A stretch of DNA of 64,000 nucleotides from a virus. Taxonomy: Duplodnaviria; Caudoviricetes. The stretch lies in IMG/VR virus record IMGVR_UViG_3300021255_004000, positions 96,001-160,000 of that record; one strand, written 5' to 3'. Position numbers and translations under genes: made by a program. Below are positions 7,570-9,139 of this stretch, one piece after another (the first letter of the stretch is position 1; every line of letters begins with the position of its first letter). A model generated the notes under the pieces. That model saw only the letters and a list, made by a program, of their open reading frames with translations, searched no databases and was not told the origin of the DNA.

Positions 7570-7598
7570 AATATAAAAGACTTATAATAAAAGTTCAA
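7570..7598 (-). promoter_or_regulatory. early sigma70-type promoter, copy 2
   Basis: TTGAAC-17-TATATT. Confidence 0.85.
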
Positions 7599-7636
7599 AA
7601 AAAATAGGGGAAATCAATGAAGAATTTCCCCTATTT
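7597..7636 (-). terminator. terminator closing the RNA operon
   Basis: AAATAGGGGAAAT/ATTTCCCCTATTT stem followed by T run. Confidence 0.85.
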
Positions 7637-7649
7637 CTCTCCTCTCTAA

Positions 7650-7743
7650 AGCGGGTCCCCCGAGTCGAACGGGGCATAACATCCAAAGTACTATGGCCAC
7701 TTTCCTATGGATCACGGTTTGCCGCTACCTTTATCAGGCCCGC
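7650..7743 (-). ncRNA. tRNA-like RNA with expanded, non-canonical D/anticodon region
   Basis: Acceptor GCGGGCC/GACCCGC (one C-A mismatch), T arm CCCCG-TTCGACT-CGGGG; central stem loop GCCATAG. Confidence 0.7.
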
Positions 7744-7948
7744 ATAACATGCGCGGAAATTGCTTATTCGCAAGTATTCCATTTCCGCAAAAAGTTGAAA
7801 ACTGTAGGGTCTTACTAAAACTTGCGACCTAATCTGCTTTCAACTAGGGATACACCGTTTGTCCTCGTCGTTATCACGAGAGCACGAGGAATCCTCCACC
7901 ATCAATTTTTGAAAGAAATTGAAAACTTTTGCATTGTAAAACGCATAG

Positions 7949-8023
7949 AACTTCAAGTAGGATTTGAACCCACATCACCGCCAATCACCCGGCAGTATGC
8001 TTACCAAGTTACACCATTGAAGT
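7949..8023 (-). tRNA. tRNA-like RNA/pseudo-tRNA with 8-nt anticodon loop GGGTGATT (His-GTG-derived?)
   Basis: Acceptor ACTTCAA/TTGAAGT, D loop with GG, stem CTGCC/GGCGG, T arm GTGGG-TTCAAAT-CCTAC. Confidence 0.75.
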
Positions 8024-8730
8024 ATGAGTTGCCTCATTCAACGGGATATGCTTCCCCGCAATACCATCCACATTTCTCAATCCTAGAAGTGGCCAAACCG
8101 TATTTTTGCAATTATCTCTTATTTAGCGTCTTAGTGTAATTGCACCACATTTTATGACGGGGAAGGCGTTTTCGGATTCTCCGAAGAAACCCCGATTAGC
8201 CTACATGTGCGGAACCTAAACCTTCAACTGCTTAGAAGGAAACTTTCCGCGTGGAGCTCTCCTATCAAACCTGCAGCAATAAGGCATACTAGGTCGATTG
8301 TCTACAAGCTCTTGTTCATTTGGGGATGCCCGATTTCTCGAACATGCCTTCCACCACTTTGTTCTTTTTAGACGGTGAACAAAGAATATCCATCTTACTA
8401 CACTTGGGAGTCGAACCCAATTCTCTCATTCCTGAGCGTCCCTATCCCGTTGGACCCGTGCAGCCCTTTTTTCTCCGCTTTCGCAGAGGCGACCAACTCA
8501 ATCCTAGTGCCCGCAAGCCCCGTAAGTTTGTCCTGCCTTTATATGCAGGGTCGATGGTCTAATCATAATTGTTCTTTTAATATCGCCGGCCATCTTTACA
8601 CTAATAAACGATATTAAAAGTTATTTGAACGCAGCTTATTATGAGAACTGTTTCTCCGGATGAAACCTCACAATAAATCCACTCCAAATCGCCGGCTCCG
8701 CCAAACCGAATTATCATCTCTTATTGCAGC
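8024..8730 (-). ncRNA. candidate large ornate structured RNA (GOLLD/ROOL-like context)
   Basis: No credible CDS; many helices, GNRA tetraloops on minus strand, long-range helix 8720-8730/8273-8283. Confidence 0.6.
8396..8464 (-). ncRNA. tRNA mimic with GNRA tetraloop instead of anticodon loop
   Basis: Acceptor GCTGCAC/GTGTAGT, D stem GTCC/GGAC, CTCA-GGAA-TGAG, T arm TTGGG-TTCGACT-CCCAA. Confidence 0.75.
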
Positions 8731-8736
8731 GGATAT

Positions 8737-9114
8737 TGGACCTGGGGAGTTTCGAACTCCCGTCTTGCTCTGACGCCCATTAACACTCTTTACAGGCTTA
8801 AAACCGAATTGACGGTAGGGACGGTCAAAACCCATATTTACTTTTGGTTTTCGATTGAACTGAGCAAGCAACCCAACTCTTGTTCAACTTATCAGATGGG
8901 CGATACGAACATTCCACTATCTGAGTCGTGAAAGTCGCAGTTGGTCCTCAAAGGGTCCAACTAGGTGTTGCCTTAGGCAGCGCGAGCGAAAGCTGCGCGT
9001 GAACCACGAGCAACAACTGAACGTTTAGTTGCAGTTATTCTTTTCCGTATTAAGGTCGGCACCTTTACCTGATGTTAAAGAACTATTCAGCCAATCGATT
9101 CCAAAGTCAGGCCC
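8737..9114 (-). ncRNA. ssrA: tmRNA
   Basis: 5' GGGCCTGACTTTGGAATCGA, 3' GGGAGTTCGAAACTCCCCAGGTCCA, G3.U70 Ala determinant, resume context ATAACT-GCA, tag ends ..AA*; CCA not encoded. Confidence 0.93.
8973..9032 (-). other. tmRNA tag reading frame ATKRSVVARGSRAAFARAA*
   Basis: Translated from GCA resume codon after AATAACT to TAA. Confidence 0.85.
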
Positions 9115-9131
9115 GATTAAACTGTAATTTT

Positions 9132-9139
9132 ATATTAAC
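9132..9139 (-). promoter_or_regulatory. GTTAATAT phage promoter motif upstream of tmRNA
   Basis: Same 8-mer precedes at least 13 other gene starts in the window. Confidence 0.7.

What the first reader, a model, noticed from the sequence alone, without database searches (positions are those of the whole stretch)
7597..9139. A 1.5-kb all-RNA operon: tmRNA, ornate RNA and three tRNA mimics, none with a normal anticodon loop
Seen in sequence: a GTTAATAT promoter (9132) precedes tmRNA, then ~700 nt of dense helices, tRNA-like units at 8396, 7949 and 7650, and a strong terminator (7597-7636). There is no credible CDS, and GC content is higher than in the flanks. All three tRNA-like units keep the acceptor stem and T arm, the elbow read by RNase P/Z, CCA enzyme and EF-Tu, but have lost a canonical 7-nt anticodon loop in three different ways. 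None encodes CCA. Inference: these are not decoding tRNAs. They may be processing punctuation that releases the intervening RNAs, or decoys for anticodon nucleases or uncharged-tRNA sensors. This is the best candidate for an undescribed system in the window.
Basis: partly seen in the sequence, partly recalled or inferred. Interest (0 to 1): 0.9.

Follow-up and report, generated by a model that had tools for sequence, protein, structure and literature searches.

The report
Phage tmRNA operon with tRNA-like punctuation
A large rumen phage carries a 1.5-kb protein-free RNA operon: a working-looking ribosome-rescue RNA (tmRNA), then three folded RNAs of no catalogued family separated by three tRNA look-alikes that cannot read codons and most likely tell the host's tRNA-trimming enzymes where to cut.

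Summary
On the minus strand a recurrent phage promoter motif (9139-9131) precedes a bona fide tmRNA (9114-8737). About 1.1 kb of non-coding sequence follows, holding three tRNA-shaped units (8464-8396, 8023-7948, 7743-7650), and a strong terminator closes it (7641-7597). No Rfam family matches the three spacer RNAs (A, B, C).

Seven related rumen/gut metagenome loci show many compensatory base-pair changes. The tRNA-like stems covary. The anticodon loop of the middle unit is 6, 7 or 8 nt in close relatives and never has U33. The unit at 8464-8396 is replaced by unrelated tRNA-like cassettes in two relatives. All of these sit 2-3 nt upstream of an almost invariant block, H1-H2.

In an unrelated phage lineage the same block directly follows that phage's own tmRNA. 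Rumen metatranscriptome contigs cover the locus more deeply than its flanks.

Best reading (about 0.5): a polycistronic ncRNA is cut by RNase P and RNase Z at tRNA-derived handles. Cutting was not shown. What RNA B does is unknown.

The scan has noted similar RNA islands and tRNA-like punctuation in other phages, but not this sequence family. Novelty: new variant of a known kind.

The parts
9131..9139 (-). Phage promoter-like motif GTTAATATA, 16 nt upstream of the tmRNA 5' end
   Evidence: 8 copies in the window against 0.43 expected. Four copies lie 3-5 nt before an ATG, implying a start about 6-7 nt downstream. The motif is conserved in all relatives that cover it.
8737..9114 (-). tmRNA (SsrA) with G3:U70, a 19-residue tag ORF ending in AA plus UAA, and no encoded CCA
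   Evidence: Acceptor and T stems covary among relatives and the tag ORF shows synonymous changes.
8465..8736 (-). RNA A: structured spacer, poorly conserved in sequence (about 35% identity to the L001 lineage), ending in a hairpin with loop CUAGGAUUGAG
8396..8464 (-). tRNA-like unit 1: 7-bp acceptor stem, 4-bp D arm, 4-bp anticodon arm capped by GGAA, canonical T arm
   Evidence: MFE cloverleaf. The mini-arm covaries (CUCA/UGAG versus CUCG/CGAG) with a GGAA or GAAA loop. It is replaced by unrelated tRNA-like cassettes in L001 and L019.
8320..8395 (-). H1-H2 module: 5' part of RNA B. H1 has stem CUUUGUUC/GAACAAAG and a 12-nt loop. It is followed by GUGGUGGA and a second hairpin with loop AGAAAU
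   Evidence: 89.6-94.8% identical across all 7 relatives. 43 nt are identical in the unrelated locus L014, directly after that phage's tmRNA. Two near-isoenergetic folds are possible.
8024..8395 (-). RNA B (about 372 nt): the best conserved spacer RNA, with about 9 helices and a hairpin abutting the next tRNA-like unit
   Evidence: No Rfam match.
7948..8023 (-). tRNA-like unit 2: a full cloverleaf derived from a GUG (His-type) tRNA, with an 8-nt loop here
   Evidence: All four stems covary. The loop is 6, 7 or 8 nt in relatives and GGUG is kept.
7744..7947 (-). RNA C: structured spacer ending in the hairpin GCGGAAAU...AUUUCCGC. Its 5' half is absent from the L001/L019 lineage
   Evidence: 4 compensatory pairs in the terminal hairpin.
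7650..7743 (-). tRNA-like unit 3: 7-bp acceptor stem (one C-A mismatch), canonical T arm, and an elongated bulged arm with loop GCCAUAG
   Evidence: The L016/L018 allele has a perfect acceptor stem and a T stem changed at 4 of 5 pairs. The unit is absent in L001/L019.
7597..7641 (-). Intrinsic terminator
   Evidence: Conserved in 6 relatives.

Best explanation
This is a phage non-coding RNA operon.

Inferred from motif statistics: a phage promoter (GTTAATATA) starts one transcript of about 1.5 kb.

Shown by sequence, structure and covariation: the transcript contains a functional-looking tmRNA, three structured RNAs (A about 270 nt, B about 372 nt, C about 204 nt) and three tRNA-derived units.

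Inferred from comparison: the three units have lost decoding ability but are held in tRNA shape. Together with the tRNA-like end of the tmRNA they act as handles for the host's tRNA-maturation enzymes.

Inferred, not shown: RNase P cuts at each 5' side and RNase Z cuts after each discriminator, since no CCA is encoded. The precursor is thereby divided into tmRNA, A, B, C and the small tRNA-like RNAs. Each spacer RNA ends in a hairpin that would protect its new 3' end.

RNA B is the conserved cargo. Its invariant 5' module (H1-H2) always begins 2-3 nt after a tRNA-like discriminator. In another phage lineage the module forms the 3' trailer of the tmRNA itself, so it is probably released by RNase Z as the 5' end of a stable RNA. 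Its function is unknown. My guess is that it relates to translation or ribosome rescue, because it travels with tmRNA.
For: (1) tmRNA and tRNA-like anatomy.

(2) Structure is under selection. In A+unit 1+B, 177 predicted pairs include 37 with compensatory double changes, against 6-16 when partners are slid and 15.5+-2.8 in shuffles. In unit 2+C+unit 3 the figures are 80 pairs and 13, against 0-2 and 6.4+-1.8.

(3) Decoding is lost but shape is kept. The unit 2 loop is 8 nt (window), 7 nt (GGUGAAU in L015-L018; GGGUGGC in L001/L019) or 6 nt (L002), while its acceptor, D, anticodon and T stems all show compensatory changes. The unit 1 mini-arm covaries under a GNRA cap. The unit 3 T stem is swapped at 4 of 5 pairs and its C-A mismatch becomes U-A in L016/L018.

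(4) Slot conservation. At the unit 1 position the window type, L001 and L019 carry unrelated tRNA-like cassettes (32-36% identity, while flanks are 81-96%). All are non-decoding. All lie 2-3 nt before (A/U)UGGAU of H1-H2. In L014, L020, L022 and L023 the same module follows a different tmRNA at the same spacing.

(5) Expression. Six rumen, sheep or bovine metatranscriptome runs hold part of the locus. Contigs from RNA libraries of four studies cover 7856-9800 at word depth 15-106, against mostly 0-7 on the neighbouring genes in three of the four runs. Several contigs break near unit 1 (8374-8440) and near unit 2 (8014, 7932). This is a weak hint only.

(6) Precedent. tRNAs and non-canonical tRNA-like 't-elements' direct RNase P and Z cleavage of longer transcripts in plant mitochondria (PMC1920247).
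Against: - No transcript ends were mapped. The runs laid were assembled contigs, and some RNA-library contigs bridge the proposed cut sites (for example 7856-8717 in X18 and 8401-9488 in X16).
- RNase P and Z need only the acceptor/T-arm minihelix, yet the D and anticodon stems of unit 2 are also conserved by covariation. The units may therefore do more than mark cuts.
- Unit 3 has no cargo downstream, only the terminator, so punctuation explains it poorly.
- The L015-type unit 1 has only a 6-bp acceptor stem.
- The host and its RNase Z are unknown.
- Only about 3-4 independent lineages were available, and the consensus structures were derived from the same alignments that were then scored.
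Confidence: 0.5

Rival explanations
1. One large multi-domain 'ornate' RNA, like GOLLD or ROOL in kind, in which the tRNA-like units stay covalently embedded as structural or docking modules rather than being cut out.
For: - GOLLD and ROOL are large phage or prophage RNAs often found near tRNA islands, and tRNAs sometimes sit in the GOLLD linker (10.1101/2024.12.08.627333; PMC5737381).
- RNA-library contigs bridge unit 1 and unit 2.
- GNRA caps occur on unit 1 and on several hairpins.
- RNAalifold proposes two long-range helices joining A to B.
- Conservation of the full L-shape of unit 2 fits a structural role.
Against: - Rfam GOLLD and ROOL models give nothing even at E<=10 on 1.1 kb.
- The long-range helices are broken in L001/L019 and show no compensatory change.
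- A and C are poorly conserved or partly missing between lineages (35% identity; half of C and all of unit 3 are absent in L001/L019).
- In the L014 lineage only the 75-nt H1-H2 module exists.
Confidence: 0.2
2. The H1-H2 block is, or also is, a small protein-coding gene, (M/L)DILCSPSKKNKVVE..., translated from a nearly leaderless mRNA made by RNase Z cleavage. Coding constraint combined with hairpin constraint would explain its near-invariance.
For: - The position 2-3 nt after the discriminator is always ATG or TTG.
- Between the window and L014, differences downstream of the identical block are two in-frame indels and three third-position changes (read).
- L001/L019 carry a -1 and a later +1 indel that restore the frame of L015.
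- This phage appears to use leaderless mRNAs.
Against: - There is no Shine-Dalgarno sequence, although neighbouring genes have strong ones.
- The start is TTG in most loci.
- L023 has a 1-nt insertion in the H1 loop that truncates the frame.
- The window and L018 stop 5 codons earlier than L015.
- Variable sites within the window lineage show no third-position bias (my count).
- The perfect 8-bp hairpin is not explained by coding.
- Gene callers call nothing here.
Confidence: 0.1
3. The tRNA-like units are decaying tRNA pseudogenes, and the spacers are leftovers of a former tRNA array with no present function.
For: - Anticodon loops vary in length and one anticodon arm is lost.
- The genome is reported to have a full tRNA array elsewhere (scan note e1-5466997, not checked), so these copies would be redundant.
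- A SegE-like homing endonuclease gene sits in this locus in L016, so recombination scars are expected.
Against: - Compensatory changes keep every stem.
- Three independent cassettes at one slot are all tRNA-shaped and all non-decoding.
- RNA B and H1-H2 are as conserved as, or more conserved than, the tmRNA.
- The locus is represented in RNA libraries more deeply than its flanks.
Confidence: 0.07
4. The units are decoys or sponges for host anti-phage tRNA nucleases or for tRNA-sensing factors.
For: - The whole L-shape, including the anticodon stem, is conserved in unit 2, and a GGUG motif is kept in its loop in all 8 homologues.
- From memory: phages are known to counter tRNA-cleaving defences with their own tRNAs.
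Against: - Loop length and register change among close relatives, which is unexpected for a mimic of a nuclease's recognition site.
- Units 1 and 3 present quite different loops.
- No defence or counter-defence gene was found next to the locus.
- Nothing tested here bears directly on the idea.
Confidence: 0.07

Closest known systems
tmRNA (SsrA, Rfam RF00023), including tmRNAs of huge phages (PMC7162821)
   Same: The first gene of the operon is a full one-piece tmRNA with a tRNA-like domain, G3:U70 and a tag ORF. tmRNAs have been reported in huge phages.
   Different: Here the tmRNA heads a longer non-coding transcript. The conserved trailer module (H1-H2) that follows it in the L014 lineage has not, to my knowledge, been described.
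GOLLD and ROOL large ornate RNAs of phages and prophages (Rfam RF01998 and RF03087; PMC5737381; 10.1101/2024.12.08.627333)
   Same: Long, heavily folded non-coding RNA in a phage (ROOL was first found in cow rumen), lying next to or interleaved with tRNA genes. Function unknown.
   Different: No covariance-model match. The locus looks modular (A, B and C vary independently between lineages) rather than one conserved fold. No evidence of multimer formation.
tRNA punctuation and t-elements of plant mitochondria (Forner et al. 2007, PMC1920247)
   Same: Non-canonical cloverleaves that keep the acceptor and T arm, sit at the borders of other RNAs, and are thought to direct RNase P and RNase Z cleavage.
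   Different: The setting is an organelle rather than a phage. Those elements flank mRNAs, whereas here they flank structured ncRNAs and a tmRNA. Cleavage is not shown here.
HDV-like theta ribozymes directly downstream of gut-phage tRNAs (PMC10879173)
   Same: A conserved RNA element that starts within a few nucleotides of a phage tRNA 3' end and would define that end.
   Different: H1-H2 cannot be threaded onto the HDV-like double pseudoknot: no P1 partner lies after a short P3 (manual check). No ribozyme family of Rfam matches.
Stable RNAs co-transcribed with phage T4 tRNA genes, tRNA-spacer-derived sRNA 3'ETS-leuZ of E. coli, and tRNA-like/miRNA units of murine gammaherpesvirus 68 (all recalled from memory, not checked here)
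   Same: Functional small RNAs released from tRNA or tRNA-like precursors by RNase P, RNase Z or RNase E.
   Different: Different sequences and organisms. These are cited only as working analogies.

Membership tests
tmRNA (RF00023) | Covariance-model score above the curated threshold over the full model | tested here: met
   59 bits against 47, model positions 1-374. ARAGORN agrees.
tmRNA (RF00023) | tRNA-like domain with G3:U70, and a tag reading frame that ends in a hydrophobic ..AA followed by a stop codon | tested here: met
   GGGCCUG pairs with CAGGUCC, giving G3:U70. The tag is ...FARAA*. Relatives show synonymous changes in the tag and compensatory changes in the acceptor and T stems.
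tRNA (RF00005), unit 2 | Cloverleaf scoring above the gathering threshold | tested here: met
   41.1 bits against 29. All four stems covary.
tRNA (RF00005), unit 2 | 7-nt anticodon loop with U33, able to decode | tested here: not met
   The loop is 8 nt here and 6 or 7 nt in relatives. Position 33 is G in all 7-nt versions.
tRNA (RF00005), units 1 and 3 | Match to the tRNA covariance model | tested here: not met
   No hit at E<=10. Only the acceptor, D-like and T arms are tRNA-like.
GOLLD / ROOL | Match to the Rfam covariance models | tested here: not met
   No hit at the gathering score or at E<=10 on 2.1 kb and 1.1 kb.
GOLLD / ROOL | Homo-oligomeric cage formation | not testable with these tools
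   Needs biochemistry or cryo-EM.
t-element-type processing signal | Non-canonical tRNA-like fold with intact acceptor and T arm | tested here: met
t-element-type processing signal | Ends of neighbouring RNAs coincide with the element's 5' end and its discriminator | tested here: inconclusive
   Only assembled RNA-library contigs could be laid. Some break near the units and others bridge them.
HDV-like / theta ribozyme | Nested double pseudoknot (P1, P1.1, P2, P3, P4) starting at the cleavage site, with a catalytic C in J4/2 | tested here: not met
   Manual threading of the sequence after the discriminator finds no P1 partner. There is no Rfam ribozyme hit. Motif description taken from PMC10879173.

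The most novel reading that the evidence does not exclude
H1-H2 and RNA B may form a new class of RNA that is physically coupled to tRNA-like or tmRNA 3' ends in rumen phages. In this reading it is a bistable module (two near-isoenergetic folds in every lineage) that RNase Z releases. It then acts with, or on, the ribosome-rescue or translation machinery. The tRNA-derived handles would be more than cut marks, for example docking modules, since their full L-shape is conserved.
Probability: 0.15. Interest if true: 0.85.

Novelty: new variant of a known kind. Interest (0 to 1): 0.6.

Why it matters
If the reading is right, a large phage uses stripped-down tRNA copies as generic cut marks to produce a tmRNA and several stable structured RNAs from one promoter. 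That logic is known from organelles and from engineered tRNA-guide arrays, but it is little documented in phages.

The locus also supplies a new, expressed, strongly conserved RNA (B) and a 43-nt module that is identical in otherwise unrelated phage loci and always sits just after a tRNA-like 3' end. These are concrete handles for asking what the unexplained 'RNA islands' beside phage tRNA genes do, and whether phage tmRNAs work together with partner RNAs.

Tried and rejected
1. GenBank phages, blastn with the whole locus: no match.

2. IMG/VR:
- Two flanking proteins and a 298-aa neighbour gave no relatives.
- The 18-mer of H1 gave 7 hits, all chance matches inside genes.
- Two degenerate RNA patterns gave nothing.

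3. GTDB genomes:
- The exact 22-mer gave nothing.
- A degenerate H1-H2 pattern gave one chance hit inside a Bacteroidota gene, with no hairpin, no tRNA and no Rfam family.

4. Known RNA families for A, B and C (GOLLD, ROOL, RNase P, 6S, Y-RNA-like, ribozymes): none at E<=10.

5. HDV-like/theta ribozyme fold for H1-H2: rejected by manual threading.

6. Unit 2 as a +1 frameshift-suppressor tRNA (8-nt loop): rejected, because relatives have 6- and 7-nt loops and position 33 is G.

7. Unit 1 as the 3' end of a second, decayed tmRNA whose 5' strand lies at the start of A: rejected. The start of A pairs locally, with covariation (UCCGC/GCGGA versus UCAGC/GCUGA).

8. Unit 1 as alanine-accepting: it has no G3:U70.

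9. Pairing of the CUAGGAUUGAG loop with the T arm of unit 2: 7/7 in the window, but not compensated in L001.

10. The name 'UPF0160' that a source gives to the upstream 121-aa protein's homologue: no Pfam support.

11. Two further minihelix hits in the window (34209-34122 and 43399-43317): weak AU-rich folds inside ORFs.

12. RNA-library contigs cannot give starts, ends or levels. Parts without cover are not evidence.
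Full report
CONTEXT

The window is phage DNA. ORFs match a DnaB-like helicase, a head maturation protease and a DNA helicase in PHROGs. Pfam finds a DnaC/IstB-like ATPase, a thymidylate-synthase-like enzyme, dCMP deaminase and ThyX. No whole genome is held for the window. 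Scan notes say the same piece spans at least seven windows and carries a large tRNA array upstream (not checked). Near-identical DNA occurs in gut, sheep-gut and bovine-gut metagenomes from 11 studies.

THE OBSERVATION

ARAGORN and Rfam agree on a full-length tmRNA at 9114-8737 on the minus strand (59 bits against a threshold of 47; tag ATKRSVVARGSRAAFARAA*). Its acceptor stem has G3:U70 and no CCA is encoded.

ARAGORN also finds a tRNA at 8023-7948 with an 8-nt anticodon loop. Rfam's tRNA model gives 41.1 bits.

The units at 8464-8396 and 7743-7650 are not found by either program at usable thresholds. Folded alone, each gives a 6-7-bp acceptor stem and a canonical 5-bp T arm with loop UUCGACU.
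- Unit 1 has a 4-bp D arm and a 4-bp anticodon arm capped by GGAA.
- Unit 3 has a long bulged arm with loop GCCAUAG.

A simple acceptor-plus-T-arm scan finds 6 such arrangements in 64 kb, against a mean of 1.2 (maximum 6) in 60 mononucleotide shuffles. Four lie in this locus on one strand. The other two are weak folds inside ORFs.

The block ends in a 19-pair terminator with a T-run. It is richer in G+C than its flanks and holds no ORF longer than 67 aa on its own strand.

GTTAATATA occurs 8 times in the window against 0.43 expected. Four copies lie 3-5 nt before an ATG. It therefore behaves like a -10-type phage promoter that often gives leaderless mRNAs. Here it would leave a leader of about 10 nt on the tmRNA.

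HOMOLOGUES

GenBank phages, IMG/VR and GTDB genomes hold no relatives. Relatives came from two routes:
- the upstream 121-aa protein (L001-L006);
- one exact-pattern scan of JGI/ENA metagenome contigs (L014-L019).

Seven loci cover the RNA block, in three grades of divergence:
- L015, L016, L017: 91-97% identical;
- L018, L002: 87-88%;
- L001, L019: 75-84% in the parts that align.

STRUCTURE IS CONSERVED

RNAalifold on A+unit 1+B (alignment A2) predicts 177 pairs, 37 of them with compensatory double changes. On unit 2+C+unit 3+terminator (A3) it predicts 80 pairs, 13 compensatory. My controls gave 6-16 and 0-2 such pairs when the 3' partners were slid by 1-3 columns, and 15.5+-2.8 and 6.4+-1.8 when partner letters were shuffled.

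Two caveats apply. Only three or four independent lineages are available, and the structures were derived from the same alignments.

The tmRNA covaries in the acceptor stem (GGGCCUG, GGGCGUG, GGGCGCG with matching 3' strands) and in the T stem (four versions). Its tag frame shows synonymous changes.

THE tRNA-LIKE UNITS

Unit 2. All four stems show compensatory or wobble changes. The loop, however, is GGGUGAUU (window), GGUGAAU (L015-L018), GGUGAA (L002) or GGGUGGC (L001, L019). RNA-library contigs also carry the one-base-shorter allele. GGUG is constant, which suggests descent from a GUG (His-type) tRNA. Position 33 is never U, the register of GUG shifts, and there is neither an encoded G-1 nor C73. 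This is not a decoding tRNA, yet its whole L-shape is kept.

Unit 1. The mini anticodon arm changes from CUCA/UGAG to CUCG/CGAG under a GGAA or GAAA cap. At the same position:
- L001 has an unrelated tRNA-like sequence, which ARAGORN calls Lys-UUU but which has A33 and an odd T loop;
- L019 has a third, with a canonical T arm and acceptor stem but no anticodon arm.

Identity at this slot is 32-36% between all three. L001 and L019 are 81-96% identical on either side of it.

Unit 3. L016 and L018 carry an allele with a perfect acceptor stem and a T stem changed at four of five pairs. L001 and L019 lack the unit and end RNA C with their own terminator.

THE H1-H2 MODULE

The first 76 nt of RNA B are 89.6-94.8% identical in all seven relatives. 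This is comparable to, and against the diverged L001 lineage higher than, the tmRNA (87.9-98.9%). A, C and the units fall to 23-64% against the diverged lineage.

Locus L014 comes from an otherwise unalignable phage. It has its own tRNAs and its own tmRNA (64 bits). It shares 43 identical nucleotides with the window. These lie immediately after the 3' end of its tmRNA and are followed by a short hairpin with the same GAGAAAUC motif and a terminator. Relatives L020, L022 and L023 show the same arrangement with one or two changes, including C-G to U-G at the closing pair of H1.

In every case the module starts 2-3 nt after the discriminator of a tRNA-shaped 3' end. The tRNA-shaped partner is interchangeable and the position is not. 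I take this as the strongest comparative argument that RNase Z creates the 5' end of this RNA.

The near-invariance of stem and loop alike is unusual for a plain hairpin. Two explanations fit the data. First, every lineage can fold the region in two almost isoenergetic ways: H1, or UUCACCG/UGGUGGA with outer pairs (also the MFE folds). Second, a short reading frame may overlap it (see rivals). Neither is proven.

OTHER FEATURES OF A, B AND C

Three motifs (AUAAGAGAU, CGGUUUGG and CUAGGAUUGAG) occur in the same order before unit 1 and before unit 2. The last of them always lies in a hairpin loop whose stem covaries.

Each spacer RNA ends in a hairpin just before the next unit. One example is AUGAG-GCAA-CUCAU, which abuts unit 2. 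Another is the 8-bp hairpin before unit 3, which shows four compensatory pairs.

The long-range helices that RNAalifold draws between A and B are broken in L001/L019. I therefore do not treat A+B as one fold.

EXPRESSION

Six metatranscriptome runs hold 31-38% of the locus's sampled words. I laid contigs from four of them, each from a different study.
- In X16 the stretch 7932-9488 is covered at word depth 42-44, against 0-5 on most of the flanks.
- In X17 the stretch 8439-9077 is covered at about 15, against 0-3.
- X15 and X18 show the same tendency.

Contigs end at 8374/8384/8401/8439/8440 (around unit 1) and at 8014/7932 (around unit 2), but others bridge these places. Because these are assemblies, this shows presence in RNA libraries and hints at enrichment. 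It cannot show processing.

COMPARISON WITH KNOWN SYSTEMS

- Huge phages are known to carry tmRNAs (PMC7162821).
- GOLLD and ROOL are large phage RNAs near tRNA islands, with tRNAs sometimes inside the GOLLD linker. Their models do not match here.
- Theta ribozymes sit directly after gut-phage tRNAs. H1-H2 does not fit the HDV-like fold.
- Plant-mitochondrial t-elements are the closest functional analogy.
- The scan has earlier notes of tRNA-like or hairpin 'punctuation' in RNA islands of other phages. These are unchecked leads on different sequences.

VERDICT

'Non-decoding tRNA mimics used as processing punctuation in a tmRNA-led ncRNA operon' is the best-supported reading (about 0.5), but it rests on comparative anatomy. 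The function of RNA B and its H1-H2 module is open.

Noticed in passing
L016:1548-2237 (inserted between the tmRNA 3' end and RNA A; equivalent to window ~8733): A 229-aa ORF with a SegE-like GIY-YIG domain and a NUMOD3 motif (a free-standing homing endonuclease) is inserted right after the tmRNA in one close relative. That relative's tmRNA T arm differs from the otherwise near-identical L015. Homing-linked gene conversion could explain the cassette-like swaps of tRNA-like units in this locus.
   Followed up: partly
window 36674, 26116, 17084, 14917 (and 61426, 34641, 9139, 5754): GTTAATATA occurs 8 times against 0.43 expected. In four copies an ATG follows after only 3-5 nt, which suggests that this phage makes leaderless mRNAs from a -10-type promoter.
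   Followed up: partly
L014:900-1150 and L014:1750-1878: The unrelated phage that shares H1-H2 has two more ORF-free, hairpin-rich stretches. One ends in a terminator. The other is closed by AAGUGUAAG/CUUACACUU directly upstream of its tmRNA. ARAGORN's tag for that tmRNA looks mis-called; a frame ending ...LRMVA* lies earlier in the RNA.
   Followed up: no
window 8722-8690 and 8122-8075: The motifs AUAAGAGAU, CGGUUUGG and CUAGGAUUGAG recur in the same order before tRNA-like units 1 and 2. This could be an old tandem duplication or a repeated binding site. CUAGGAUUGAG contains two U..A pentads reminiscent of T-loop motifs (speculation only).
   Followed up: partly
window 8391-8317: A short frame (MDILCSPSKKNKVVEG...) starts at the conserved (A/U)UG 2-3 nt after the discriminator of unit 1. 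It is open in most relatives and in the L014 lineage, and shows some coding-like substitution patterns. It has no SD sequence and is broken in L023.
   Followed up: partly
window 8490-8470: The window alone carries an extra GAAA-capped hairpin (CUCUGC-GAAA-GCGGAG) between the CUAGGAUUGAG hairpin and unit 1. All relatives lack it.
   Followed up: no
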